25,283 nt of DNA from a virus (lineage: Duplodnaviria; Heunggongvirae; Uroviricota; Caudoviricetes). The notes under the pieces were generated by a model. The model saw only the letters and a program-made list of their open reading frames with translations, had not been told where the DNA came from and ran no database searches. The translations under genes were made by a program, and so were the position numbers. Location: the IMG/VR virus record IMGVR_UViG_2529292829_000008. The stretch is one strand, 5' to 3'. Positions 3,720 through 21,453 of this stretch are shown here, piece after piece. Each line of letters begins with the position of its first letter. Position 1 is the stretch's first letter.

Positions 3720-3946
3720 TGGCTGATGCAATGGATCTCGTCCAGCAGCGAGTTGAAGAAGAACGCCAACGTCATATCCGTGCTGCCCGTGCCAAAACGC
3801 CGGGCGTGTCCCGCGTGCTTTGCGTTGAGTGTGAAGCGCCAATTCCGCCAGCACGCCGTCGTGCCATTCCGGGTGTGCAGCTTTGCATTACCTGTCAGGA
3901 AATCGCAGAGCTGAAAGGCAAACATTACAACGGAGGTGCTGTATGA
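3719..3946 (+). CDS. TraR/DksA-family C4 zinc-finger protein
   Basis: 75 aa with C-x2-C-x19-C-x2-C (CVECEAPIPPARRRAIPGVQLCITCQ), the spacing pattern of phage/plasmid TraR-like DksA zinc fingers rather than Ogr (C-x2-C-x22-C-x4-C). Confidence 0.65.
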   Translation: MADAMDLVQQRVEEERQRHIRAARAKTPGVSRVLCVECEAPIPPARRRAIPGVQLCITCQEIAELKGKHYNGGAV

Positions 3947-4800
3947 GCACCATCCTGAAATGGGCGGGAAATAAACCCGCCATAATGTCCGAACTGAAAA
4001 AGCATCTTCCTGCTGGCCCGCGACTGGTTGAACCTTTCGCGGGTTCCTGTGCTGTGATGATGGAGACGGATTACCCCAGCTATCTTGTTGCGGATATTAA
4101 TCCTGATTTAATCAACCTCTATAAAAAGGTTGCTGCTGATTGTGAGGCGTTTATATCTCGTGCCAGAGCTTTATTTGAGGAAGCAAACAGGGAGGTGGCT
4201 TATTACAACATAAGGCAGGAGTTTAATTACTCCACTGAAATTACTGATTTCATGAAAGCGGTATATTTTCTGTATCTCAATCGTCATGGTTACCGTGGGT
4301 TATGTCGCTATAACAAGAGCGGGTATTTCAACATTCCCTACGGTAATTATAAAAATCCGTATTTCCCTGAAAAAGAAATTCGCGCATTTGCAGAGAAAGC
4401 CCAGCGAGCAACGTTTATCTGCGCCAGCTTTGATGAAACGCTGGCGATGCTGCAGGGGGGGGATGTGGTGTATTGCGATCCGCCTTATGACGGTACGTTT
4501 TCCGGTTATCACACTGACGGCTTCACTGAAGATGACCAGTATCACCTGGCATCCGTTCTTGAACATCGGTCATCAGAAGGACATCCCGTCATTGTTTCTA
4601 ACAGTGACACATCCCTGATCCGTTCGCTGTATCGCAATTTTACTCACCACTACATCAAGGCAAAACGCAGCATCGGTGTGGCAGCTGGTGATAGTAAATC
4701 TGCAACAGAAATCATTGCTGTTTCCGGGGCGCGCTGCTGGGTGGGATTTGATCCTTCGCGTGGCGTAGATAGTTCTGCTGTGTACGAGGTGCGTGTATGA
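3943..4800 (+). CDS. dam: DNA adenine methyltransferase, Dam-like (D12 class N6-A MTase)
   Basis: From ATG 3943 (GGAGG SD): KWAGNK near the N-terminus, FAGSCAV (motif I-like), [15 protein letters not shown], and catalytic DPPY ([10 protein letters not shown]); near-colinear with E. coli Dam as I recall it. Confidence 0.88.
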
Positions 4801-7211
4801 GTCATGACGATATGAGCAACTCTAGCGGCTTTAACGAGGCCGCTGCATCATTTTCATGGAACGGCCCGAAAAAGGCCATTAACCCTTATCTGGACCCGGC
4901 GGAAGTTGCGCCGGAGTCTGCACTTTCAAACCTGATCACTCTGTATGTTGCCGATAACGAGCAGGAACAACTGCGCCGCGAGGCACTGAGTGAGCAGGTC
5001 TGGGAGCGTTATTTCTTTAATGAATCCCGTGATCCTGTCCAGCGCGAAATGGAGCAGGATAAGCTCATTAGCCGGGCAAAGCTGGCGCATGAGCAGCAGC
5101 GTTTTAATCCAGACATGGTCATTCTGGCTGACGTCAACGCCCAGCCTTCCCATATCAGCAAGCCGCTGATGCAACGTATTGAATACTTCAGCAGCTTGGG
5201 CAGGCCAAAGGCTTATTCCCGCTATTTGCGTGAGACGATTAAGCCATGTCTGGAACGACTGGAGCATGTACGCGACAGTCAGCTATCCACTTCTTTTCGC
5301 TTTATGGCAAGCCATGAAGGGCTGGACGGCCTGCTGATCCTGCCTGAAATGAGTCAGGATCAGGTAAAACGCCTGTCCACCCTGGTAGCTGCGCATATGA
5401 GCATGTGCCTTGATGCCGCTTGTGGCGATTTATATGCCACCGATGACGTTAAGCCAGAAGAAATCCGCAAGACATGGGAAAAGGTGGCAGCGGAAACCCT
5501 GCGACTGGATGTTATCCCGCCTGCGTTTGAGCAACTCCGCCGGAAAAGAAACCGCCGTAAACCAGTGCCCTATGAACTCATTCCGGGCTCGCTGGCGCGT
5601 ATGCTGTGCGCCGACTGGTGGTATCGGAAATTGTGGAAGATGCGTTGCGAATGGCGGGAAGAGCAGTTGCGTGCTGTCTGCCTGGTCAGCAAAAAAGCAT
5701 CTCCCTATGTCAGCTATGAAGCTGTGATGCATAAACGTGAGCAGCGCCGTAAGTCGATGGAGTTTTTCCGTTCTCATGAACTGGTGAACGAAGACGGAGA
5801 CGCGCTGGATATGGAAGATGTGGTAAACGCCAGCTGCAGCAACCCGGCGCATCGCCGCAATGAGATGATGGCCTGTGTTAAAGGTCTGGAGCTTATCGCG
5901 GAAATGCGCGGTGACTGCGCCGTTTTCTACACTATTACCTGTCCGTCACGTTTCCATTCCACGCTCAATAACGGCAGACCCAACCCGACCTGGAAAAACG
6001 CGACGGTAAGACAAAGCAGCGATTATCTGGTCGGTATGTTTGCTGCATTTCGTAAGGCGATGCACAAAGCCGGGTTGCGCTGGTATGGCGTGCGGGTGGC
6101 TGAGCCGCATCACGACGGCACAGTTCACTGGCACCTGTTGTGTTTCATGCGCAAAAAAGACCGCCGCGCCATTACTGCATTGTTGCGTAAGTTTGCTATC
6201 CGTGAAGACCGCGAGGAGCTGGGCAATAACACGGGGCCGCGCTTTAAGTCTGAGCTGATTAACCCGCGCAAAGGAACGCCGACAAGCTACATAGCGAAAT
6301 ACATCAGTAAGAACATTGACGGGCGTGGTCTGGCTGGCGAGATCAGCAAGGAAACGGGTAAATCTCTTCGTGATAACGCTGAATACGTGAATGCCTGGGC
6401 GTCTTTGCATCGTGTTCAGCAATTCCGCTTCTTTGGTATTCCGGGGCGTCAGGCTTACCGTGAACTGCGATTGCTGGCTGGTCAGGCGGCAAGGCAGCAG
6501 GGTGACAAAAAAGCAGGTGTGCCGGTACTGGATAACCCGCGCCTTGATGCCATTCTGGCTGCTGCTGATGCTGGTTGTTTTGCCACCTATATCATGAAGC
6601 AGGGAGGTGTACTGGTTCCCCGTAAATATCACCTCATCAGAACCGCTTATGAAATTAACGAAGAGCCGACCGCCTATGGCGATCACGGTATTCGTATTTA
6701 TGGCATCTGGTCACCCATTGCAGAGGGCAAGATCTGCACTCATGCAGTGAAGTGGAAAATGGTTCGTAAGGCCGTTGACGTTCAGGAGGCGGCAGCCGAC
6801 CAGGGCGCTTGCGCCCCTTGGACTCGTGGCAATAACTGTCCCCTTGCTGAAAATTTGAACCAACAAGGGAAAGACAAATCAGCTGATGGGGACTCCAGAA
6901 CGGATATTACCCGTATGAATGACAAGGAGTTGCACGATTACCTGCACAGTATGAGCAAAAAAGAGCGCCGGGAACTGGCTGCAAGGTTACGCCAAGTGAA
7001 ACCGAAACGGCGTAAAGACTACAAACAGCGAATTACAGACCATCAGCGACAGCAGCTCGTCTATGAACTGAAGTCCAGGGGATTTGATGGCAGCGAGAAA
7101 GAAGTCGATTTGCTCCTTCGCGGCGGCAGTATTCCGTCAGGAGCAGGCCTGCGTATCTTCTATCGGAACCAGCGTCTGAAGGAAGATGATAAGTGGCGGA
7201 ACCTGTATTAA
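4797..7211 (+). CDS. A: Replication initiation endonuclease (P2 gpA-type rolling-circle initiator)
   Basis: 804 aa; HUH motif ([10 protein letters not shown]) and paired active-site tyrosines ([12 protein letters not shown]), as in P2 gpA; start overlaps the dam stop. Confidence 0.9.
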
Positions 7212-7303
7212 TTACGCGGGTTAACAATTCGTGCTCTTAATAATACCAGGCATATCAGGCCGATGAACGTAAAAAAACGTTTTACATCAGTAAGATTATT
7301 ATA

Positions 7304-7323
7304 TACTGTAAATATAAACAGTG
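7304..7323 (+). promoter_or_regulatory. LexA (SOS) box TACTGTAAATATAAACAGTG
   Basis: CTGT-N8-ACAG core at 7306-7321 with an AT-rich centre, about 40 bp upstream of the 7364 ORF; a partial second half-site (ATACAGTA) follows at about 7330-7337. Confidence 0.6.
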
Positions 7324-7363
7324 GTTATGTATACAGTATTGTTTTGGTGTCATAGGAGGAAAG

Positions 7364-7552
7364 ATGCAGGACTATTTTTTGGAGTCTTTGAAGCTTCAGC
7401 GCATTGATTTTTTTCTTAAGCTTGTAGCGGCTAGTGAGTGTAGTGATGAAGAGAAGGGGCTGGCTCTGCAGTGGGTTTCTGAATTGACTGATGAACTTAT
7501 GGCAAAAATCAGAAGCCACGAATACAACCGCTCAATGGATATCATCAGCTGA
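7364..7552 (+). CDS. Small hypothetical protein, first gene of the LexA-boxed operon (possible Tum-like antirepressor component)
   Basis: 62-aa ORF with strong AGGAGGA SD; immediately downstream of the LexA box and upstream of the DinI-like gene. Confidence 0.4.
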   Translation: MQDYFLESLKLQRIDFFLKLVAASECSDEEKGLALQWVSELTDELMAKIRSHEYNRSMDIIS

Positions 7553-7562
7553 GGTGACTTTT

Positions 7563-7796
7563 ATGCGCATTGAAATAATGATCGATAAAGAGCAGAAGAT
7601 TAGCCAGTCTACCCTGGACGCCCTTGAATCCGAGCTTTACCGCAATCTGCGCCCCCTGTATCCCAAAACGGTAATTCGCATTCGCAAAGGTAGTTCTAAC
7701 GGTGTGGAACTAACCGGACTGCAACTGGATGAAGAAAGAAAACAAGTGATGAAAATTATGCAGAAGGTGTGGGAGGACGACAGCTGGCTGCATTAA
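7563..7796 (+). CDS. dinI: DinI-family protein
   Basis: From ATG 7563 (GAGGTGA SD): MRIEIMIDKEQKISQSTLDALESELYRNLRPLYP...VMKIMQKVWEDDSWLH, resembling E. coli DinI (MRIEVTIAK...ILQETWE...) in length and motifs. Confidence 0.7.
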   Translation: MRIEIMIDKEQKISQSTLDALESELYRNLRPLYPKTVIRIRKGSSNGVELTGLQLDEERKQVMKIMQKVWEDDSWLH

Positions 7797-7988
7797 GAAA
7801 CGTTGCCCCCAGGAGGATTCATTCTGATGGGGGCTAGTTTGGGCAATGAGTGAAATAAGGCGTAAGGTGGGCGGTTATTTTGATAAGTGATCGTCCGCTT
7901 TGTGTCAGAAGCAGAAGTGGGAGTGTCTGAGACTCTCTAAAAGTTGATGATTCACTTACAAAACCATTTTCCTGATGAATGCTTACAC

Positions 7989-8324
7989 TTACGAATGATC
8001 ATTCTGTTTAGTCTTCATGAGAAAATCCCGAATCTTTGCCAAGTTTGAATTTTCGGGGATTGAATCCATGTACGGATCACGCTCAAACACTAATTGCTCA
8101 GATTCAACGAAAGCCTGCCACTCTACTGGGTCTAGCTCAAATCCCATTGCTGTCATATCACTTTCATCTTCCCCCTCGATCCAGTGGACTAAATAAAACA
8201 ATTCATCATCAGGAGAATCATCCTCACCATCAACAATATCAACATCGGTTACAGTGATACGTAGGGTGGGATCGATTTTTGAGACATAAATTCCTAACTG
8301 TGGTATAGGGGGAATATTGTTCAT
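7989..8324 (-). CDS. Highly acidic hypothetical protein (111 aa)
   Basis: ATG with AGGAG SD; roughly 26 Asp/Glu versus about 8 basic residues; AT-rich; located beside cos. Confidence 0.5.
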   Translation of the reverse strand: MNNIPPIPQLGIYVSKIDPTLRITVTDVDIVDGEDDSPDDELFYLVHWIEGEDESDMTAMGFELDPVEWQAFVESEQLVFERDPYMDSIPENSNLAKIRDFLMKTKQNDHS

Positions 8325-8703
8325 GGAAACTCCTTTTATTGGTGTTTGCTATTTGAATAAAAATACGCCAAACAGAGTGTTAACTGTGAATATGGAAAGA
8401 ATCGTTGTAAGTACCCCGCTTAGGTGTCCCATTCTATTTTAGAGGTTCTCGTGCATATGGATTATGTTATCTGAAAGCTAACTTCCGCTTCCCGTTCACA
8501 GCGAACATTCATCTTTGTAAACCCGTATGATCCGTTTTTCAAGTGGCCATTCAGATACGGATTTTCACTTCCTTGACAGTGCATGACTATGCTGCATGAA
8601 ATCGCATGATCGATTGAGGATCGTCTTTGCTCAGATCCGCCAGAACTGGCGGGCTTTTGCTCATGTCATGCATGTGCATGAAAACCACTGCATAAAGCGG
8701 GCA

Positions 8704-8722
8704 GGCGTGGCGGGGATACGAG
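8704..8722. other. Candidate cos site (P2/186-type cohesive end, cosN)
   Basis: GGCGTGGCGGGGATACGAG: the first 13 nt match the 19-nt cohesive ends of 186/P2 as I recall them (GGCGTGGCGGGGAAAGCAT / GGCGAGGCGGGGAAAGCAC); lies in a 475-bp non-coding region between the replication and packaging modules. Confidence 0.55.
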
Positions 8723-8799
8723 CGCGCGCATTGATTTCAAAAGATGAAATCAAGTGGTACGATAAGTAGGATTACTACCAATTCTCAAAGGGATGTCTC

Positions 8800-10497
8800 A
8801 TGCATAGAATTGTTAAAGCTCATCTTGATAACTTCGTGAAAAGTCACGGTATTGAAAATCATCAAGAGGACACGCAGTTCGAGCTATTTTGTAATAAAGC
8901 TTTGCTGTCTTCTCGTATAAGTATGGATTATGAAATTGACGATGTAACAACCGGGGCTGGTGATGATGGCATGGATGGTGTTGCCATCATAATTGATGAA
9001 GAATTGTGTATATCTTCTGAAGATGCTACTTCAATATTTTCCTCATTACGTAAAAATCATGATGTTGATATTGTTTTCATTCAATCAAAGCGTAGTGAGT
9101 CTTTTGATTTAGGTGATTTTTTAAAGTTTAAAGCTTCCGTTTTTAGATTTATAGAGGATTCTCCTTACTTATGTGTGGATGAAATTCAAAAAAATGCAAG
9201 GGAAGTTTTTGATGTCATAATAAAAAATGTACCTAAGATAAGAGGTGGGCGACCAACTTTTACTGCTAAATATGTTGCAACTGGTTTATATAAAAAACCT
9301 AAAGAGTTAGAGAATGCTCGGAAGTTATTTGCAAAAGAAATTGACGAGTTGGGGTATTTCTGTAATGTTAGCGTTGAGTTTGTTGATCGTGATGAATTAA
9401 CACGTACTTGGATTGATACTTATTCAGTTGTCAATGCTGAATTGCCATTATTTAGTAATGCACCACTTCCCAAAATTAATGGTATAGAAGAAGCTTATCT
9501 TGCTGTCGTTAAAGCAAAGGATTTTGTTGGTAATTTATTGATGACGGACGAGGGGTCTCTCCGTAATCATGTTTTTGTTGAGAACGTCAGGGCGTTCTTG
9601 GGAATTGATAATCCTGTTAACGCATCGATTGCTGAGACAATTAAAAATAAAGATGCCGCTTCACGATTTCCTGTTTTAAATAATGGAATAACAATTGTTA
9701 GTCCGGATGTAAAACTTCAAGGGAGTATTTTACATCTAGAAAATTTTCAGATAGTTAATGGCTGTCAGACATCAAATGTGCTTTACGAATGCCGCGATTC
9801 CTTAGATGATACGATGATGGTTAACTTGAAAGTCGTAGAGACATTAAACGAAGATGTTTTTTCAGAATTGGTTCGAGCGACTAACAGTCAGACTAAAGTT
9901 GATGAGACTCAGTTCTATTCTCTTCGTCCAATAATAAAGAAAGTAGAAGCGTACTTTGATACTTATGAAGGGCAGGATGGTCGTTTATATTTAGAAAGAC
10001 GTGAAAGACAATTTATCGGTAGAGATATACCTGCAGTTAGAGTATTTTCAGTTCATATGGCAGCTAAATGTGTAGCAGCTATGTTCTTCCGTCGGCCAGA
10101 TCTTTCATATAGATACCCTAAAAAAATGTATGAATTGTTGGCTGAGAAAATATTTTCTAATGATACCAAGGAGATTGTATTTTATTCAGCATGTTTAACA
10201 TTATATAGATTACACTTACTTACTTCTAATGCTGATATTCCACAAAATATCAGGAAGTACAAATGGCATTTAATGGCGGTAGTTGGTGCTTTAATTGCCG
10301 GAAAGGATGTGCCTAATTTTGGATCTAAGAAAATGGATGCGTATTGTAATAAAATCATCACTGAAATGACAAAGCATGGTGATAAAATAAAAGCTACTTT
10401 CCAGAAGGCTGTTGATATTGTTTTGTCAATTGATGATATCACTGATGATAGAATGAAAAGGCAAGCTATTTTAGAGGAAATGCTTGCCAAGATTTAA
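8800..10497 (+). CDS. Low-GC cargo protein, candidate AIPR-like abortive-infection / defence protein
   Basis: 565-aa ORF, much more AT-rich than the backbone; sits between cos and the portal gene; contains ...FPVLNNGITIVSPDV...ENFQIVNGCQTSNVLYE... (DNA about 9751-9774), which I recall as resembling the conserved NGxQT core of the AIPR family. ORF call is solid; family assignment is tentative. Confidence 0.55.
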   Translation: MHRIVKAHLDNFVKSHGIENHQEDTQFELFCNKALLSSRISMDYEIDDVTTGAGDDGMDGVAIIIDEELCISSEDATSIFSSLRKNHDVDIVFIQSKRSESFDLGDFLKFKASVFRFIEDSPYLCVDEIQKNAREVFDVIIKNVPKIRGGRPTFTAKYVATGLYKKPKELENARKLFAKEIDELGYFCNVSVEFVDRDELTRTWIDTYSVVNAELPLFSNAPLPKINGIEEAYLAVVKAKDFVGNLLMTDEGSLRNHVFVENVRAFLGIDNPVNASIAETIKNKDAASRFPVLNNGITIVSPDVKLQGSILHLENFQIVNGCQTSNVLYECRDSLDDTMMVNLKVVETLNEDVFSELVRATNSQTKVDETQFYSLRPIIKKVEAYFDTYEGQDGRLYLERRERQFIGRDIPAVRVFSVHMAAKCVAAMFFRRPDLSYRYPKKMYELLAEKIFSNDTKEIVFYSACLTLYRLHLLTSNADIPQNIRKYKWHLMAVVGALIAGKDVPNFGSKKMDAYCNKIITEMTKHGDKIKATFQKAVDIVLSIDDITDDRMKRQAILEEMLAKI

Positions 10498-10550
10498 TTA
10501 TACCTTGATATGTATATTAACGTGATTTTTTAAGTTGAATATCTAAGTAA

Positions 10551-10583
10551 AAAGAGTGCTTTTATTGTTAAGCACTCTTTTTT
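10551..10583. terminator. Bidirectional rho-independent terminator between the cargo gene and portal gene
   Basis: Perfect 11-bp inverted repeat AAAGAGTGCTT (10551-10561) / AAGCACTCTTT (10570-10580) with an 8-nt loop, followed by a T-run ending at 10583 and preceded by an A-run. Confidence 0.6.
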
Positions 10584-10584
10584 A

Positions 10585-11619
10585 TTAAGCTAACTCAAGG
10601 CTATATGTATTGAATTTAATAATGTCATCTTCTACCCACTCATTAATTTCTTTGATTCTTTCCTGTAAGGGGGTTAATTCGTTACGGACGAATACCTTGC
10701 TGGCTTTTTCAATATCGCCAAATCCACCAGTGTTTTGTGGAATAATGCCCATCATCTGCGGAGGAACTCGATGTGCTGCCATCATGTCATCGCGACTGAC
10801 ATTTTTGATATTCAGAAACTCATCCTTCGCCGCGACTTCTGACAACGGGATGATCTGAAGCCCGTCCTTTTTGCCGTTAGGCGAGTACATAAACAAATTG
10901 CGGAAGTTGCCTGGACCTTTGGCACTTTTCATCGCGTTGCGGAGGTTGTTTACATCTTCCTGGTTTTGCGCGGCGTCGGTCATGTACATGATGAAGCCTG
11001 CATGACTGCCGTTAATGTAATACTTCCGGCGGAACAGCGTGGCGGACTCGTTGAGCAGGGCTGACGGAATGACAGAAAGATAGCCGGGCAGGCCGTAGAT
11101 TTCTTGATTAATATCCGGCTCCATCAGGTGAAAAATGCTGCCTTTCGTGAACTGATACGGCTGCGTGGTCATGCCGTATTGCACAAACCAGTAGGTATCC
11201 AGGTCTAACCCGCGTCGGGGGTATTTTGCCAGCGCAGGCTCAAGGGCGATAACTTCACCGAATCGGTTCGTGCGTTTCTCCAGGTAGGCGTTACCAAATA
11301 CCAGATAGTCCTGCACAAAACGCGAAAAAGCCTGCTGGCTGAGCAGCGGGGGGGGGATGTAGGTACTGGTCAGAATGTTGCATTTCACCGCAATTGGTGA
11401 ACTGTGATGCACGGCGGCGCGGAAGGTGCGCGCCAGTCCGTCAAAGCTTACTGGCGGCTCATACCAGCGATCTGTCTGTAAGCATTCCACATAGTCCAGC
11501 AGTTCGCGGCGGTCCAGAACAGGAACGGGATCACCGAAGCTGAATGCTTCGGCTGTAGTCTGGCTTTTATGCTGAATCTGGGTCGTCGCCGCAGCGCGCT
11601 TCTTCTTACTCTTTCCCAT
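10585..11619 (-). CDS. Q: Portal protein (P2 gpQ-like)
   Basis: 344 aa, same length as P2 gpQ; ...SFDGLARTFRAAVHHSSPIAVKCNIL...FRRKYYINGSHAGFIMYMTDAA... is colinear with my recollection of gpQ. Confidence 0.92.
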   Translation of the reverse strand: MGKSKKKRAAATTQIQHKSQTTAEAFSFGDPVPVLDRRELLDYVECLQTDRWYEPPVSFDGLARTFRAAVHHSSPIAVKCNILTSTYIPPPLLSQQAFSRFVQDYLVFGNAYLEKRTNRFGEVIALEPALAKYPRRGLDLDTYWFVQYGMTTQPYQFTKGSIFHLMEPDINQEIYGLPGYLSVIPSALLNESATLFRRKYYINGSHAGFIMYMTDAAQNQEDVNNLRNAMKSAKGPGNFRNLFMYSPNGKKDGLQIIPLSEVAAKDEFLNIKNVSRDDMMAAHRVPPQMMGIIPQNTGGFGDIEKASKVFVRNELTPLQERIKEINEWVEDDIIKFNTYSLELA

Positions 11620-13385
11620 TAAAAAATCTCCACAATATTGCTGGTATTGGCGGATTCGCCCTGCAGCGGTTCGTTAAACAATGCGTGCATCGTTGCCCAG
11701 GCCAGATCGGCATGGCTGGCTTCTTCGCTGCGGCTGGCTTCATAGGTCGGGCGGTTGCCGCTAGCGGTGGTGGCCCGACGGATTGCCATAAAGGACTGCG
11801 CTATGTCGGTGTGCCCGGCGTCAAACTCCAGGCGGCGGTGGCTAATAATGTCGTAGGCCTTGAGTACCAGGGCGTTTTTAACGTTGGGATTGTAGACAAA
11901 CTCCCGGACGGCAGGAAAGAACGCTTTCACGTTCTCGTAAACCCCGTGGCCGACGCCAGTTGAGTCGATGCCGATGTATGTCACGTTGTACTGTTCGGTC
12001 AGTTTTTTGATGGCGTCAGCCTGGGCGCGGAAGTCCATCCCGCGCCACTGGTGACGTTCAAGAATGCGAAACTTGCCGCCCGGCACGGCTGGCGGTGCCA
12101 CCACCACGCATCCAGCGCTGTCGCCGTTTTGTGTACCTTTTGCCGGGTCATAACCGATCCACACTTCGCGCCAGCCAAACGGGCGTAGCGCCAGTGCATG
12201 AAAGTCGGTCCAGACTTCCCAGCTGTCCACCATGCACGCCTGCAGCTCGCTGAGCGGGAAGACGGACGCGAGATCGTCCACGAACTCACACATCAGCAGG
12301 TTCTGGTATTCGTCCGGGCTGTACTCCATGCGCAACTGGTCGAGATCGAACAGGTTACATCCGCCGCGCACCGCATCTTCCACGGTGACTATCTGGCGGT
12401 ATTGCCCGTCTGCGCACAGCAGGCCGGGGGCCAGATTGTTGTGGGACAGGTCGATGTCCACCTTATCGGCTTTGTTGCGCCCACGGTTGAACAGCGCACC
12501 GGACCAGAACGGATAAGCACTGTGGGTCAGGCTGGATGGTGTGGAAAAATAGGTCTGTCGCCATTTCTTGTGAATAGCCATACCGGAAGCTACTTTGCGC
12601 AGCTCCTGGAATTTCGGTATCCAGAAATATTCATCCAGATACAGGTTGCCGTGGTAACTCTGGGCAGTGCGGGCATTGGTGCCGAGGAAGTAAAGCGTGG
12701 CCCCGTTAGGAAGCACCATCGGATCGCCTTTCAGCTCCACCTCCACTTCTTTGGCGAAGTCGATGATGTACTGCTTAAAGACGTGGGCCTGAGCCTTGCT
12801 GGCGGAAAGGAAAATCTGGTTACGCCCGGTTAGCAGGGCGTCAATCAGGGCTTCACGGGCAAAATAGAAGGTCGCGCCGATCTGGCGTGACTTCAGCAGG
12901 TTGCGGATGCGGTTGGTTTTTCCGGCTTCCCACCAGTGGCGCTGGTAGTTGAACATGGAGGAATGGAAGATTTCTTCCAGCTTCTCAATCTGTTCATCGG
13001 TGAAAACGTTCTTTTCCGGCTGACGGCGCGGGCCTTTGTTGCGGTTGGCGACGTTAGGGTTTAAGTCGGCTTCGTTGCCGCCATTGTTAAACTTGCCGAT
13101 GCGCGCGTGGCGCTCCGACTGGCGCGCCAGCAGGTCAATCTCTTTGAAATCTTTCCCTTCTTTGTGCTCCTTCATAATGAGCTGGCAGTAGCGGGCGGCG
13201 GTGGTGAGCTGCATCTGATCCAGCGGCCCATAGTCACCCCACTTGTCGCGTTTCTTCCAGCTGTGAACGGTTGCAACTTTCTCGCCCAGCATTTCAGCAA
13301 TGCGGGCTACGCGATATCCCTGAAAGTACAGCAGCATGGCCTGCCGACGGGGATCGAGATCTGCGGGTGTCAGTGTGGTGTTCAT
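11619..13385 (-). CDS. P: Terminase large (ATPase) subunit (P2 gpP-like)
   Basis: 588-aa ORF directly upstream of and overlapping the portal gene start; length and position match P2 gpP. Confidence 0.9.
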   Translation of the reverse strand: MNTTLTPADLDPRRQAMLLYFQGYRVARIAEMLGEKVATVHSWKKRDKWGDYGPLDQMQLTTAARYCQLIMKEHKEGKDFKEIDLLARQSERHARIGKFNNGGNEADLNPNVANRNKGPRRQPEKNVFTDEQIEKLEEIFHSSMFNYQRHWWEAGKTNRIRNLLKSRQIGATFYFAREALIDALLTGRNQIFLSASKAQAHVFKQYIIDFAKEVEVELKGDPMVLPNGATLYFLGTNARTAQSYHGNLYLDEYFWIPKFQELRKVASGMAIHKKWRQTYFSTPSSLTHSAYPFWSGALFNRGRNKADKVDIDLSHNNLAPGLLCADGQYRQIVTVEDAVRGGCNLFDLDQLRMEYSPDEYQNLLMCEFVDDLASVFPLSELQACMVDSWEVWTDFHALALRPFGWREVWIGYDPAKGTQNGDSAGCVVVAPPAVPGGKFRILERHQWRGMDFRAQADAIKKLTEQYNVTYIGIDSTGVGHGVYENVKAFFPAVREFVYNPNVKNALVLKAYDIISHRRLEFDAGHTDIAQSFMAIRRATTASGNRPTYEASRSEEASHADLAWATMHALFNEPLQGESANTSNIVEIF

Positions 13386-13431
13386 GGCACAAACCTACAG
13401 CCTTGAATGAAGGCTTTCCCCGCCTGCGGTT

Positions 13432-13449
13432 TGTGTGGTTGTCGGTACA
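13432..13449. promoter_or_regulatory. Candidate Ogr/B-dependent late promoter element (TGT-N12-ACA) in the P/O divergent region
   Basis: TGTGTGGTTGTCGGTACA; its centre is about 55 bp upstream of a plausible start site roughly 30 nt before the O ATG (13528), the geometry of P2 late promoters. Confidence 0.5.
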
Positions 13450-13527
13450 AATACCGCACATTGTTTCACTGCCCCCATCACCGCAACCATAAGGCTCCAG
13501 TAAGTTTTTTCTAACGGAGCACGGCTC

Positions 13528-14361
13528 ATGACAGTGAAAGCAAAGCGTTTTCGCATCGGGGGGGAAGGTGCCACCACCGACGGGCGCGAAATCCAGCGTG
13601 AATGGCTGGAACAGATGGCAGCCAGCTACAACCCGGCGGTGTATACCGCGCTGATTAACCTTGAGCACATCAAGTCTTATCTGCCGGACAGCACCTTTAA
13701 CCGCTACGGCAAGGTGACGGCGCTGTTTGCTGAAGAAATCACGGAAGGTCCGCTGGCGGGCAAGATGGCGCTGTATGCCGACGTTGAGCCAACGGAATCC
13801 CTGGTGGCGCTGGTGAAAAAAGGCCAGAAATTATTCACCTCTATGGAAGTCAGCCCGAAGTTCGCTGATACGGGCAAAGCCTACCTGGTCGGCCTGGCTG
13901 CCACTGATGACCCTGCCAGTCTGGGTACGGAAATGCTGACATTCAGCGCCAGTGCAGCTCATAACCCGCTGGCAAACCGCAAGCAGAATCCTGCAAATCT
14001 CTTTACCGCTGCAGAGGAAACGGTGATCGAACTGGAAGAAATCCAGAATGACAAACCGTCCCTGTTTGCCCGAGTCACGGCGTTGTTTACCAAAAAAGAG
14101 CAGTCCGATGACGCCCGGTTCTCTGATGTGCATAAGGCCGTGGAGCTGGTCGCCACTGAGCAGCAGAACCTGAGCGCACGCACCGAAAAATCCCTGTCTG
14201 AGCAGGAAGAACGCCTGTCTGAGCTGGAGACTGCCCTGCAGGCACAGCAGACCGCCTTTAACGAACTGGTGGACAAGCTGAGCCAAGAAGACAGCCGCCA
14301 GGACTACCGCCAGCGTGCAACAGGCGGTAACGCCCCCGCTGACACTCTGACCAATTGCTGA
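13528..14361 (+). CDS. O: Capsid scaffolding protein (P2 gpO-like)
   Basis: 277 aa; ...RIGGEGATTDGREI...INLEHIKSYLPD...YLVGLAATDDPASLGTE...SDDARFSDVHKAV...ATGG...TNC, colinear with P2 gpO. Confidence 0.9.
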   Translation: MTVKAKRFRIGGEGATTDGREIQREWLEQMAASYNPAVYTALINLEHIKSYLPDSTFNRYGKVTALFAEEITEGPLAGKMALYADVEPTESLVALVKKGQKLFTSMEVSPKFADTGKAYLVGLAATDDPASLGTEMLTFSASAAHNPLANRKQNPANLFTAAEETVIELEEIQNDKPSLFARVTALFTKKEQSDDARFSDVHKAVELVATEQQNLSARTEKSLSEQEERLSELETALQAQQTAFNELVDKLSQEDSRQDYRQRATGGNAPADTLTNC

Positions 14362-18502: not shown

Positions 18503-18896
18503 AGCAGTGCCTTATGTCCGCAATAACCCGGACAAACTGCATCTGTTTGTGGATAACGGTTCGCTGGTTGCCACCGGGGCCAGCTCCATGTCATGGGAGT
18601 ACCGTTATACCCTCAACGTGGTGATTGAGGATTTCAGCGGCGACCAGAATCTGCTGATGGCTCCCGTGTTGCTGTGGCTCAGAGAGAACCAGCCGGACGC
18701 CATCAACAACCCGGAGCTGCGCGAAAAACTGTTCACCTTTGAAGTGGATATTCTGCGCAATGACGTGTGTGATATCAGCCTGAATCTGCAGCTGACAGAG
18801 CGCGTACTGGTCAGCACTGACGGCACTGTGTCCAGTGTTGAAGCTGTAGCGGAACCCGATGAACCTGAAGAAATGTGGACGGTGAAACGTGGATGA
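18465..18896 (+). CDS. R: Tail completion protein R (P2 gpR-like)
   Basis: ORF 18444..18896; alignment with P2 gpR (...SLRRALTDAV...FVDNGS...YTLNV...PVLAWLRENQPD...) suggests the GTG at 18465 after AGGAGCG; the ATG at 18444 is the alternative start. Confidence 0.8.
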   Translation: MNKPQSLRHALNKAVPYVRNNPDKLHLFVDNGSLVATGASSMSWEYRYTLNVVIEDFSGDQNLLMAPVLLWLRENQPDAINNPELREKLFTFEVDILRNDVCDISLNLQLTERVLVSTDGTVSSVEAVAEPDEPEEMWTVKRG

Positions 18897-19338
18897 ACTG
18901 CAGAAGGTGGACGACTGGCTGAGTGCCTTGCTGGCGAATCTGGAGCCAGCCGCAAGAAGCCGCATGATGCGCCAGCTGGCGCAGGAACTGCGCCGGACAC
19001 AGCAGCAGAATATCAGGATGCAGCGCAACCCTGACGGCAGCAGCTATGAACCGCGACGGGTAACAGCACGCAGTAAAAAAGGCCGTATCAAACGTCAGAT
19101 GTTTGCAAAGCTGCGCACCACAAAATACCTGAAAACTGCCGCCAGCGCGGATTCTGCCAGCGTACAGTTTGAAGGTAAGGTACAGCGCATTGCCCGCGTT
19201 CACCATTACGGCCTGCGTGATCGCGTCAGTCGAAAAGGACCGGAGGTCCGCTATGCAGAGCGCCGCTTGCTGGGTTATAGTAATAATAGTTATCTAATCG
19301 TTAGTGATTTACTAATGAAATGGCTAACGCATCGTTAG
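18889..19338 (+). CDS. S: Tail completion / virion morphogenesis protein S (P2 gpS-like), C-terminus altered at the cargo junction
   Basis: 149-aa ORF (GTG start overlapping the R stop) with ...RVHHYGLRDRVSRKGPEVRYAERRLLG...; the last ~20 codons are AT-rich, consistent with replacement by the adjacent insertion. Confidence 0.8.
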   Translation: MDELQKVDDWLSALLANLEPAARSRMMRQLAQELRRTQQQNIRMQRNPDGSSYEPRRVTARSKKGRIKRQMFAKLRTTKYLKTAASADSASVQFEGKVQRIARVHHYGLRDRVSRKGPEVRYAERRLLGYSNNSYLIVSDLLMKWLTHR

Positions 19339-19349
19339 CCATTACGAGA

Positions 19350-20795
19350 TTAATGAGTTTTAAGTGCCTCTGTTAAAGATTTTCGATGATGTTCCCAAAA
19401 GGCAAAATCATTTACGTTTGAACTAAACCTCAAATGCTCTTCAGAATATATTGTTTCACGGTGATCGCATCCAAGAAGACATAGAATTAATCTGGTTAGA
19501 TATATTGTTAAGTGTTCACAAGCAACTGCAATGTTTATCAAGTTGTCACTTGGTATAATTACACCATGTATAATTATATTTCTGATTTCAGAAAGTCCTA
19601 GCTTACCAGATTCATTAAATAATGGCCATAAGTCATGAGTATGGATTAAATGTTCTTTAAGAAATTCTTGTGTGGCATCTTTTAATGATATTCTATTCAG
19701 TTCTCCTAGTTTGCTTTTTATTTTTCCTCTAGTTGTTGAATCTTTGATAACGTCCTTGGTGATGACTCTTTCAATTGTTTGTCTTAATGATTTAAACTCG
19801 CTTTCACATAGAATGAAGGTCGTATTGTTTTTTTCTTTATGAGTTAAGATAATAGATTCAAAAGATTGGAAAAGTGAAAGGTATCGAGACTCAAGATATT
19901 GGTTTGATGCATTGAGGACATTAATGGCTAATCGGATGTTCTGTCTGTAATGGGATGACAAATATGTGTGAAACATATTTTCAATATTTTCTTTGGCTTG
20001 TGATGGCATCATTAAGTGTTCTTTTTTGGTATCCTTAATAGGATTTTTTATCCTACAGCGAAAAACTGTATATACACCATCATTAGATTTTAGGTTCAAG
20101 TAACGACAAACTACTTTGTTACTATTGATAAATGATAAGATATCATTAAATGCGTCAATTTTGTCAATGTAGTTGTTTCTTACATCATCAATGGTTAAAT
20201 TAGAATTGTTGGGCTTTATTTTTAGGATTTGTTTTGTGCTGATTTCAAATTTTTCATTGCGTTCTAGTTTTAATTCGATATCTAATTTTATATCTTCGTC
20301 ATTGTTAAGTTTAACAATAATAGACTCTGGCTTTGTAAGAGTGATGTTACCATTCGAAGATAAATTGTACTGAATGTTAGGGGAAAGTAGTTGATGGTCA
20401 CTGTTGTAGAATGTTATTTCCGTATCAGGCGTATTATGTGCTTTATTATTTATAATGACTTCATTGGGAATGATGTTAAATGTATAGTATTGAGTTTTTC
20501 CTGAGTGACGGTCGACGATGTTTTCTATTCTACAATCGATTAGTTTTATCACTGAGCGAATATCACCATTTACATAATGAGTGCAAAATTCAATGTCTAA
20601 ATTATTTTTTCCATAAAGCTTGATGGTTTTTTTACTATAGGTCTTTATCTGAATCCTATCCCAGCTTTCTTTATTGTTGACAGTAACATTGCAAGTCATT
20701 TTGATACTGTTTTCTGTTTTTATATTATCGTCATTAATAGTAATTGGGTTGTGGTCATAAGAAAAAGTAACTTTAATTGATTCATACGTGTTCAC
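19350..20795 (-). CDS. Low-GC cargo protein with C-terminal HEPN-like R-N-x3-H motif (candidate abortive-infection RNase)
   Basis: 481-aa ORF, antisense to the flanking tail genes; GTG start with perfect AAGGAG SD; very AT-rich; N/K/I-rich N-terminal two-thirds; C-terminal region contains SEIRNIIIHG (DNA 19566-19583). ORF call is solid; function is a hypothesis. Confidence 0.6.
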   Translation of the reverse strand: MNTYESIKVTFSYDHNPITINDDNIKTENSIKMTCNVTVNNKESWDRIQIKTYSKKTIKLYGKNNLDIEFCTHYVNGDIRSVIKLIDCRIENIVDRHSGKTQYYTFNIIPNEVIINNKAHNTPDTEITFYNSDHQLLSPNIQYNLSSNGNITLTKPESIIVKLNNDEDIKLDIELKLERNEKFEISTKQILKIKPNNSNLTIDDVRNNYIDKIDAFNDILSFINSNKVVCRYLNLKSNDGVYTVFRCRIKNPIKDTKKEHLMMPSQAKENIENMFHTYLSSHYRQNIRLAINVLNASNQYLESRYLSLFQSFESIILTHKEKNNTTFILCESEFKSLRQTIERVITKDVIKDSTTRGKIKSKLGELNRISLKDATQEFLKEHLIHTHDLWPLFNESGKLGLSEIRNIIIHGVIIPSDNLINIAVACEHLTIYLTRLILCLLGCDHRETIYSEEHLRFSSNVNDFAFWEHHRKSLTEALKTH

Positions 20796-20810
20796 TGATG
20801 TTTATCTCCT

Positions 20811-20828
20811 TGTGTGGTAAGCGACACA
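20811..20828. promoter_or_regulatory. Candidate Ogr/B-dependent late promoter element (TGT-N12-ACA) upstream of V
   Basis: TGTGTGGTAAGCGACACA, sharing the TGTGTGGT start with the dyad at 13432; it is unusually close to the V ATG (20875) for a -55 centre and overlaps the SD of the divergent cargo gene. Confidence 0.4.
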
Positions 20829-20874
20829 ATATTATCAAATTTTGAATTAAGAAAAAGGCTGCCATAGTTGCCTT

Positions 20875-21453
20875 ATGAACGCACAACTGACCGAAATCAT
20901 GCGCCTTATCACCAACCTGATCCGCACAGGGGTAGTTACCGAAGTGGACAGGGAAAACTGGCTTTGCCGGGTGAAAACGGGCGAGCTTGAAACCAACTGG
21001 ATTAACTGGCTGACGCTGCGTGCCGGGAATGCCCGCACATGGTGGCGACCATCGGAAGGTGAGCAGGTGGTGCTGCTGAGTCTGGGCGGAAATCTGGAAA
21101 CCGCCTTTGCGCTGCCCGCTGTCTATTCGAATCAGTTCGCACCACCGTCGACGTCGGCGGACGCCTGCGTGACAGAACATCCTGACGGTGGCTGGTTTGA
21201 ATACGAACCCGCCACCGGGCGCTGGTATGTCAGGGGCATCAAATCAATGGTCATTGAGGCCGCTGACAACATCACCATGAAAACCAGTGAGTTTGTACTG
21301 GAGGCTGACCGCACGTGCATTAACAGCGAAGTGGTGATCAATGGTGGCGTTACCCAGGGCGGCGGAGCGATGAGTTCTAACGGGATTGTGGTTGATGCGC
21401 ATCAGCATACTGGCGTCCTGAAAGGCGGCGATACAACCGGAGGCCCGGTATGA
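20875..21453 (+). CDS. V: Baseplate spike / assembly protein V (P2 gpV-like)
   Basis: 192 aa; MNAQLTEIMRLITNLIRTGVVTEVD...WLTLRAGNARTWWRPSEGEQVVLLSLGG...SSNGIVVDAHQHTG... is colinear with P2 gpV. Confidence 0.9.
   Translation: MNAQLTEIMRLITNLIRTGVVTEVDRENWLCRVKTGELETNWINWLTLRAGNARTWWRPSEGEQVVLLSLGGNLETAFALPAVYSNQFAPPSTSADACVTEHPDGGWFEYEPATGRWYVRGIKSMVIEAADNITMKTSEFVLEADRTCINSEVVINGGVTQGGGAMSSNGIVVDAHQHTGVLKGGDTTGGPV

What the first reader, a model, noticed from the sequence alone, without database searches (positions are those of the whole stretch)
8800..10497. AT-rich 565-aa cargo gene between cos and the portal gene: candidate AIPR-like abortive-infection protein
Seen in sequence: an AT-rich single-gene block sits between the cos-like site and the 3' end of Q, ending in a strong bidirectional terminator. 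The cos-proximal variable region of P2-like phages is an established carrier of anti-phage genes (old and tin in P2 itself). The protein contains ...NNGITIVSPDV...ENFQIVNGCQTSNV..., which I recall as resembling the conserved core of the AIPR family, but I cannot verify this without a profile search. It could equally be an unrelated or new defence family.
Basis: partly seen in the sequence, partly recalled or inferred. Interest (0 to 1): 0.8.

Follow-up and report, generated by a model that had tools for sequence, protein, structure and literature searches.

The report
AbiU anti-phage gene beside prophage cos

The parts
8578..8730 (.). Conserved cos region of Fels-2/186-type P2-like phages. It marks the left boundary of the variable cargo.
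   Evidence: Only this part of 8300-10700 matches 44 other P2-like phage records at 86-91%. It aligns with the P2 cos junction.
8704..8722 (.). cos-like 19-mer GGCGTGGCGGGGATACGAG (predicted cohesive-end site).
   Evidence: Pattern search. Identical in Fels-2, E. coli PE144, E. coli 30EVA1 and the P0001 contig. Collinear with P2 cosR/cosL.
8755..8763 (+). Predicted extended -10 promoter element TGgTACGAT (inferred).
   Evidence: Conserved as TGnTAnnAT about 37-45 nt before the ATG in P2-like, Morganella lambdoid and Dickeya island copies. The consensus scanner, which requires a -35 element, did not list it.
8787..8793 (+). Shine-Dalgarno-like AAAGGGA, 6 nt before the ATG.
   Evidence: Read from the sequence. 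AAGG is conserved in all P2-like carriers.
8800..10497 (+). AbiU/AIPR-family gene, 565 aa, intact.
   Evidence: dN/dS is 0.03 against the Fels-2, PE144 and Pantoea alleles. All family-invariant residues are present.
8800..9549 (+). N-terminal domain (aa 1-250): PD-(D/E)xK restriction-endonuclease fold. Candidate active site is E28, D59 (GMDG) and Q95-S-K97.
9550..10050 (+). AIPR core (aa 251-417): ParB/sulfiredoxin-like fold. It carries the invariant residues N262, R264, N274, N294-N295-G296-T298, N320-G321-Q323-T324, N362, Q364 and R400-R401.
10051..10494 (+). C-terminal all-helical domain (aa 418-565). It is the least conserved part and is a candidate sensing or specificity module.
   Evidence: Secondary structure and pLDDT of about 80-90. 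Mean column conservation is 0.395, against 0.534 for the core. There is no conserved Rx4-6H motif.
10549..10582 (.). 13-bp hairpin flanked by an A-run and a T-run. Predicted bidirectional terminator for the AbiU gene and the convergent P-Q operon.
   Evidence: Fold gives dG -18.3 and z -5.4. It is in the same position as the annotated tQ of P2.
10585..11619 (-). Portal gene Q (context; right boundary of the slot).
   Evidence: Homologues are annotated as phage portal protein.

Best explanation
The gene is a single-protein anti-phage defence gene of the AbiU/AIPR family, carried as cargo in the cos-proximal hotspot of a Fels-2/186-type P2-like prophage. The mobile unit is small: an extended -10 promoter, a ribosome-binding site and the ORF. 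It is therefore probably expressed constitutively from the prophage, independently of phage regulation (inferred). The protein has three modules. The first is an N-terminal PD-(D/E)xK nuclease with E28, D59 and Q95-x-K97. The second is a highly conserved ParB/sulfiredoxin-fold core whose invariant Asn/Gln/Arg residues (NNGIT, NGCQT, TNxQ, ERR) most likely form a nucleotide- or nucleic-acid-binding pocket. The third is a variable helical C-terminal domain. The proposed mechanism is as follows. The C-terminal domain and the ParB-like core sense an infection cue or foreign nucleic acid. This licenses the nuclease, which cuts phage (and perhaps host) nucleic acid early in infection. That would fit the delayed phage transcription reported for lactococcal AbiU. 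Shown here: family membership, domain folds, residue conservation, location, mobility and purifying selection. Inferred: expression, nuclease activity, gating by the ParB-like module, and any protective phenotype. Whether the cell survives (restriction-like) or dies (abortive) is open.
Confidence: 0.6

Rival explanations
1. It is a direct, non-abortive Type IV-like restriction enzyme. The ParB-like core and C-terminal domain recognise modified or otherwise non-self phage DNA, and the PD-(D/E)xK domain cuts it, sparing the cell. In logic this resembles GmrSD, BrxU, SspE or MspJI. This differs from the best explanation only in the trigger and in the fate of the cell.
Against: The DUF262 DGQQR motif and the HNH/DUF1524 nuclease that define GmrSD-type enzymes are absent. 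No DNA-modification reader domain (SRA-like or similar) was detected. The lactococcal prototype was classed as abortive infection, with only a 10- to 100-fold drop in EOP.
Confidence: 0.2
2. It is a passenger with no protective role in this host. The gene is a horizontally spreading selfish cassette that is maintained elsewhere and gives no measurable phage resistance in E. coli.
For: pFR77 (the P4-borne AIPR) is not among the validated systems. The nearest E. coli allele is a frameshifted pseudogene. The gene is present in only about 0.1% of complete E. coli genomes, although about 1264 of them carry this cos region. The prototype AbiU gives only modest protection.
Against: The ORF is intact with every invariant residue present. 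dN/dS is 0.03 across carriers with saturated synonymous sites. The cluster at 93% identity has 216 member sequences. Two AIPR subfamilies have been captured independently in the same slot, one with 25% identity. The pFR77 protein is too distant (28% over the core) for its negative result to transfer.
Confidence: 0.12
3. It is a HEPN-type RNase toxin, as stated for AIPR proteins by Makarova et al. [quoted passage not shown]
For: The literature statement. The delayed-transcription phenotype could reflect RNA cleavage. The C-terminus is all-helical.
Confidence: 0.03
4. It serves the phage's own life cycle. A ParB-like plus nuclease protein next to cos could act in packaging, partition or replication of the P2-like genome.
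For: It lies directly beside cos and the packaging genes, and it has a ParB-like fold.
Against: The gene is absent from about 99% of related prophages that share the same cos and Q. Near-identical copies occur in a lambdoid prophage, in chromosomal islets and in bacteria from other phyla with no phage context. In sister phages the slot holds unrelated cargo. Its GC content marks it as foreign.
Confidence: 0.03

Closest known systems
AbiU (AbiUi/AbiU1) of Lactococcus lactis plasmid pND001, as modelled by PADLOC PDLC02357
   Same: Full-length collinear homology to the PADLOC model (374 bits; model positions 3-532 of 537). The three-module layout is the same. The E...D...QxK, NVRxF, NNGIT, NGxQT, TNxQT and (E/D)RR motifs are all preserved against a lactococcal plasmid homologue. 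Like AbiUi, which suffices alone, it is a single gene.
   Different: Only 24% identical to the lactococcal-type protein. There is no AbiUii-like (HEPN) second gene downstream. C322 of the NGCQT motif is Leu in the lactococcal protein. It is carried by a Gram-negative P2-like prophage rather than a plasmid. The phenotype is untested.
Fels-2 STM2723.1 (YP_001718749.1) and E. coli WP_087890510
   Same: The Fels-2 protein is 93.5% identical, with the same cos-to-gene-to-Q arrangement, the same cos 19-mer and the same upstream leader. The PE144 gene encoding WP_087890510 is 84% identical at DNA level and lies in the same slot. WP_087890510 is listed as 'AIPR' cargo of the P2 hotspot in Table S5A of Rousset et al. 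2022.
   Different: The alleles are old: dS is about 1.26. Fels-2 annotates it only as a hypothetical protein. PGAP gives the E. coli protein an N-terminal extension of 18 codons, which in this window is closed by a TAG at 8767-8769.
P2 old and tin, and the gpA-gpQ defence hotspot (Rousset et al. 2022)
   Same: Non-essential, AT-rich lysogenic-conversion cargo next to cos in a P2-family phage. It falls within the hotspot as defined, from gpA to gpQ.
   Different: old and tin lie on the gpA side of cos and are transcribed away from it. This gene lies on the Q side, in what is a 186-bp gap in P2. The proteins are unrelated: Old is an ATPase with a TOPRIM nuclease.
GmrSD / BrxU / SspE / DndI (DUF262 ParB-like NTPase plus DUF1524 HNH nuclease)
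   Different: The domain order is reversed, with the nuclease first. The nuclease is PD-(D/E)xK, not HNH. The motif is NGCQT rather than DGQQR. There is no sequence-level relationship. It is an analogue, not a family member.
MzaE of the MZA system
   Same: It shares the AIPR core (PADLOC MzaE E 1.2e-9; NCBIfam NF041935 42 bits, aa 258-400).
   Different: The score is far below the equivalog cutoff (42 against 1050). Only the core matches. No MzaA-D genes are nearby.
RE-2010 gp14 and P4-borne pFR77 AIPR proteins
   Same: Same Pfam family and same motif set. RE-2010 gp14 occupies the identical cos-Q slot, and pFR77 sits next to the P4 cos.
   Different: They are 25% and 28% identical respectively, over partial lengths, so they belong to separate AIPR subfamilies. 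pFR77 was cloned and tested but is not among the validated systems.

Membership tests
Pfam AIPR (PF10592) | Whole-protein score above the Pfam gathering threshold | tested here: met
   150 bits against a cutoff of 25; E 1.5e-43; aa 260-514 against model positions 2-274 of 308.
Pfam AIPR (PF10592) | Conserved core motifs NNGIT and (I/V)VNGxQT | tested here: met
   N294, N295, G296, T298, N320, G321, Q323 and T324 are invariant in 68 diverse homologues and are present here.
AbiU (PADLOC PDLC02357 / lactococcal AbiUi) | Full-length match to the AbiU profile | tested here: met
   E 4.4e-112, 374 bits, aa 2-563 against model positions 3-532 of 537. For comparison, a lactococcal plasmid AIPR scores 590 bits, Fels-2 375 bits and RE-2010 228 bits.
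AbiU (PADLOC PDLC02357 / lactococcal AbiUi) | Collinear homology to a lactococcal AbiU-type protein | tested here: met
   24% identity over 478 aa, E 4e-26, against L. cremoris pC42 WP_126355208 (589 aa, followed by a 341-aa gene). I could not confirm that this protein is identical to the AbiUi of Dai et al. 2001, because that paper is not held.
AbiU (PADLOC PDLC02357 / lactococcal AbiUi) | Confers phage resistance with delayed phage transcription | not testable with these tools
   The phenotype is known only for the lactococcal prototype.
P2-family cos-proximal defence hotspot (Rousset et al. 2022) | Variable cargo located between replication gene A and portal gene Q, adjacent to cos | tested here: met
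   gpA is 4797..7211, cos is 8704-8722, the gene is 8800..10497 and Q is 10585..11619. Only the cos block is shared with other P2-like phages. The homologue WP_087890510 appears in their Table S5A.
PD-(D/E)xK nuclease superfamily | Restriction-endonuclease-like alpha/beta fold | tested here: met
PD-(D/E)xK nuclease superfamily | Conserved acidic and lysine catalytic motif: E ... D ... (D/E/Q)xK | tested here: met
   E28 67/68, D59 68/68, Q95 67/68 and K97 59/68. Placement on helix 1, strand 2 and strand 3 is consistent with the model's secondary structure. Spatial clustering could not be checked because coordinates are not exposed.
PD-(D/E)xK nuclease superfamily | Metal-dependent nuclease activity | not testable with these tools
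   This needs biochemistry.
ParB/sulfiredoxin fold (ParB, KorB, Srx, DndB, DUF262) | Fold similarity of the AIPR core to solved ParB/Srx structures | tested here: met
ParB/sulfiredoxin fold (ParB, KorB, Srx, DndB, DUF262) | Equivalent phosphate-binding motif (GERRxR / DGQQR / DGQHR / GGCHR) at the strand-to-helix turn | tested here: inconclusive
   In the model NGCQT lies at a strand-to-helix junction (strand 70-73 and helix 75-83 in domain numbering), and it resembles GGCHR/DGQHR. No residue-level superposition was available. No Pfam ParBc, DndB or DUF262 hit was found.
GmrSD/BrxU/SspE type IV restriction (DUF262 + DUF1524) | DUF262 domain with a DGQQR motif plus a C-terminal DUF1524 HNH nuclease | tested here: not met
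   No Pfam DUF262 or DUF1524 hit. The nuclease is N-terminal and of the PD-(D/E)xK type. The relationship is analogy only.
MzaE (MZA system) | NCBIfam NF041935 equivalog score, and neighbouring mzaA-D genes | tested here: not met
   42 bits against a cutoff of 1050. The neighbours are cos and Q.
HEPN RNases | All-helical domain with a conserved Rx4-6H motif | tested here: not met

The most novel reading that the evidence does not exclude
AbiU/AIPR proteins may be a distinct architecture of nucleotide-gated defence nuclease. In this reading a ParB/sulfiredoxin-fold switch, whose pocket is built from the invariant NNGIT/NGCQT/TNxQ/ERR residues, binds an NTP or a phage-derived nucleotide or nucleic acid. 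It then licenses an N-terminal Mrr/FokI-like PD-(D/E)xK nuclease, while the variable helical C-terminus sets phage specificity. This would be convergent with GmrSD, BrxU and SspE but built from different parts. An E. coli/Salmonella prophage copy with its own promoter would make the mechanism of AbiU, unknown since 2001, directly testable in a tractable host.
Probability: 0.35. Interest if true: 0.55.

Novelty: already known. Interest (0 to 1): 0.25.

Why it matters
As a catalogue entry it adds little. AbiU/AIPR genes are already reported in P2-like phages and P4 satellites, standard tools (PADLOC, PGAP) label this gene automatically, and the reference phage Fels-2 carries a 93.5%-identical copy. 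The residual value is practical. AbiU is one of the classical Abi systems whose mechanism has never been solved, and no solved structure matches it by sequence. This enterobacterial copy is compact and intact, apparently carries its own promoter, and sits in a genetically tractable phage-host pair. The domain dissection here (PD-(D/E)xK nuclease, ParB/Srx-like core, variable helical tail) gives specific residues to mutate. It also corrects an older statement that AIPR proteins carry an N-terminal HEPN domain. The comparison further shows that the P2 hotspot has two sub-slots, one on each side of cos. The Q-side slot, which is empty in P2 itself, repeatedly holds single defence cassettes that converge on Q.

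Full report
OBSERVATION. The two quoted peptides are at aa 294-304 and 314-327. The gene has GC 0.346. Its neighbours Q, P and A have 0.504, 0.569 and 0.528. A cos-like 19-mer, GGCGTGGCGGGGATACGAG, lies at 8704-8722. It is identical in Fels-2 and three other carriers and aligns with the P2 cos junction. It sits in a 150-bp block (8578-8730) that is the only part of 8300-10700 shared with 44 other P2-like phage records. Downstream, a 13-bp hairpin at 10549-10582 is flanked by an A-run and a T-run. It folds at -18.3 kcal/mol (z = -5.4; none of 200 shuffles folds as well) and ends 2 nt before the stop codon of the convergent portal gene Q (10585..11619, -). That is the position of the annotated tQ terminator in P2.

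THE WINDOW. The window is a Fels-2/186-type member of the P2 family. In order it carries integrase, CI, CII, DUF5347, Dam, gpA, DinI, a 111-aa minus-strand ORF, cos, the gene in question, and then Q, P, O, N, M, L and the lysis and tail genes.

FAMILY.
- Pfam AIPR (PF10592): 150 bits against a cutoff of 25.
- PADLOC AbiU: full-length match, E 4.4e-112, aa 2-563 on model positions 3-532 of 537.
- PHROG 1841 'Abi alpha-like abortive infection': E 5e-147.
- MzaE: only the core matches, at 42 bits against a cutoff of 1050, so it is not MzaE.
For calibration, a Lactococcus cremoris plasmid AIPR protein (589 aa, followed by a 341-aa gene, the layout described for abiUi/abiUii) scores 590 bits on the AbiU model. 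The Fels-2 protein scores 375 bits and the RE-2010 protein 228 bits. The window protein aligns collinearly with the lactococcal protein over 478 aa (24% identity, E 4e-26), and every motif is preserved except C322, which is Leu in Lactococcus.

ALREADY ON RECORD.
- Fels-2 STM2723.1 is 93.5% identical and sits in the same cos-to-Q slot, annotated as a hypothetical protein.
- PGAP labels the E. coli copies 'AIPR family protein'.
- One of them, WP_087890510, is listed as AIPR cargo of the P2 hotspot in Table S5A of Rousset et al. 2022.
- That paper defines the gpA-gpQ region as a defence hotspot.
- A 2026 NAR survey states that AbiU occurs in both P2-like phages and P4 satellites.
- A Salmonella comparative study places AbiU in Typhimurium-specific prophages.
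Family and location are therefore known.

- Copies at 85-93% identity lie in the same slot of P2-like prophages, in one case opposite an RM system across cos. Others lie in a Morganella lambdoid prophage between the replication and Q-antiterminator modules, and in a Dickeya chromosomal islet beside a DUF87 ATPase.
- Copies at 61-67% identity occur in IS-rich islands, in defence islands next to a PLD nuclease, an AAA_15 ATPase, MmeI/Eco57I methylases and T5orf172, or as solo insertions among housekeeping genes. These hosts span several phyla.
- None of the contexts examined is core genome.
- A second AIPR subfamily (25% identical) occupies the identical slot in Salmonella phage RE-2010.
- Sixty plasmid records carry more distant members.
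- In E. coli the gene is rare. About 7 of 5426 complete genomes have it, although 1264 carry this cos region, and the closest copy (98.7% nt) is frameshifted.

A REFINEMENT OF THE P2 ANALOGY. In P2, old and tin lie on the gpA side of cos. The cos-Q interval is only 186 bp and contains nothing but tQ. The gene here is inserted into that interval. Sampling related phages shows that this Q-side sub-slot is a general cargo site, always transcribed towards Q. SopEPhi has orf14 and orf15 there, one Klebsiella phage has a SEFIR-domain protein, another has an ATPase plus an RloB-domain protein, and RE-2010 and Fels-2 have AIPR proteins.

THE MOBILE UNIT.
- Between P2-like carriers, homology runs from cos through the gene into Q.
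- In the lambdoid and island copies it runs only from 15-47 nt upstream of the ATG to the stop codon.
- Alignment of the leaders shows a conserved extended -10 element about 37-45 nt before the ATG. It reads TGgTACGAT here (8755-8763), TGaTATGAT in Morganella and TGaTAGAAT in Dickeya. An AAGG ribosome-binding site follows.
- I infer that the cassette carries its own minimal promoter and is expressed independently of its context. This has not been shown.
- The 583-aa start used by PGAP for WP_087890510 is not open in this window, because a TAG lies at 8767-8769. Homologues across phyla are 565-566 aa and begin MHRI.

SELECTION. dN/dS against the Fels-2, PE144 and Pantoea alleles is 0.03, with dS above 1.2. 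The protein is strongly constrained and the alleles are old. The whole-library search found 3602 representatives at 50% clustering, of which 550 have E at or below 1e-30. Most are full-length with the same architecture.

ANATOMY OF THE PROTEIN. A full-length AlphaFold2 model (pLDDT 76) has a confident N-terminal alpha/beta domain and a confident C-terminal helical domain. Foldseek found nothing significant.

C-terminal domain. The helical domain is the least conserved part (0.395 against 0.534 for the core). It has no conserved Rx4-6H motif, so the published statement that AIPR proteins carry a HEPN domain is not supported for this protein.

MECHANISM (inferred). The most likely reading is a self-contained defence nuclease. 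The variable C-terminal domain and the ParB-like core act as the sensor or switch, binding a nucleotide or foreign nucleic acid. The N-terminal PD-(D/E)xK domain is the effector. This is analogous in logic to GmrSD, BrxU and SspE, but the domain order is reversed and the nuclease fold is different, so it is not a member of that family. The only phenotype on record for the family is from lactococcal AbiU: delayed phage transcription and a 10- to 100-fold drop in EOP. Whether the cell survives is unknown.

EVIDENCE AGAINST A ROLE IN E. COLI. A P4-borne AIPR gene (pFR77) was cloned by Rousset et al. but is not among the seven protective systems they report. It is only 28% identical over 132 aa, so the result transfers poorly. 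The gene is also rare in E. coli and one copy is a pseudogene.

VERDICT. The gene is a bona fide AbiU/AIPR-family member in a documented hotspot, so it is already known in kind and in place. The residual interest is that the AbiU mechanism remains unsolved. This copy, together with the domain map and the residues identified here, offers a tractable way to test it.

Noticed in passing
window 19350-20870 (gene 19350..20795, - strand): A second AT-rich cargo block (GC about 0.35) lies between virion-morphogenesis gene S (18889..19338) and baseplate gene V (20875..21453), the slot of P2 orf30 (recalled, not checked). It is a single 481-aa gene with no PADLOC hit, only a sub-threshold Pfam DUF7239 match, and a full-length match to PHROG 22870 'unknown function'. 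Only 1 of 5426 complete E. coli genomes carries it, while about 1037 have S and V adjacent without it. The 132-aa ORF at 20782..21180 (-) overlaps V and is probably spurious. This unknown-function gene is a better novelty candidate than the AbiU gene.
   Followed up: partly
window 7989-8324 (- strand): A 111-aa acidic ORF lies on the gpA side of cos, in the other sub-slot of the hotspot. It matches PHROG 17127 'unknown function' and has no Pfam or PADLOC hit. The part of the gene tested (8300-8324) plus the adjoining DNA up to cos is 99-100% identical in many E. coli prophages.
   Followed up: partly
L002 (E. coli 30EVA1) 12165-13918: The closest E. coli copy of the AbiU gene (98.7% nt) is annotated as frameshifted, that is, a pseudogene. 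The window copy is intact.
   Followed up: no
L003 (E. coli PE144) 6165-7916; window 8746-8799: RefSeq protein WP_087890510 is annotated with an 18-codon N-terminal extension (583 aa). In the window that frame is closed by TAG at 8767-8769. Homologues from many phyla are 565-566 aa and begin MHRI, so the RefSeq start is probably too far upstream.
   Followed up: yes
L024 3725-5158; L025 3824-5810; L022 3778-5326; L004 3437-5101: The Q side of cos is a recurrent cargo sub-slot in Fels-2-like Peduoviridae, and the cargo always converges on Q. It holds a SEFIR-domain protein, an ATPase plus RloB-domain pair, two unknown SopEPhi genes, or a distant AIPR protein. In P2 itself the slot is an empty 186-bp gap.
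   Followed up: partly
window 3883-4800 (+): The prophage encodes a Dam-type orphan N6-adenine methyltransferase just upstream of gpA (PADLOC oMTase, E 7e-111). This would matter for self/non-self discrimination if AbiU turned out to be sensitive to DNA modification.
   Followed up: no
L008 8832-11742 (Dickeya dadantii): In the Dickeya chromosomal islet, the 89%-identical AbiU gene lies next to a DUF87/FtsK-like ATPase and a 403-aa protein with no recorded domain. In a second strain an IS (rve) element is inserted between them. This may be a small defence islet.
   Followed up: no
literature: PMC3506569: [quoted passage not shown] The fold and motif analysis of this protein does not bear this out. 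According to the 2026 FEMS review, the HEPN protein of the lactococcal locus is the separate AbiUii.
   Followed up: yes
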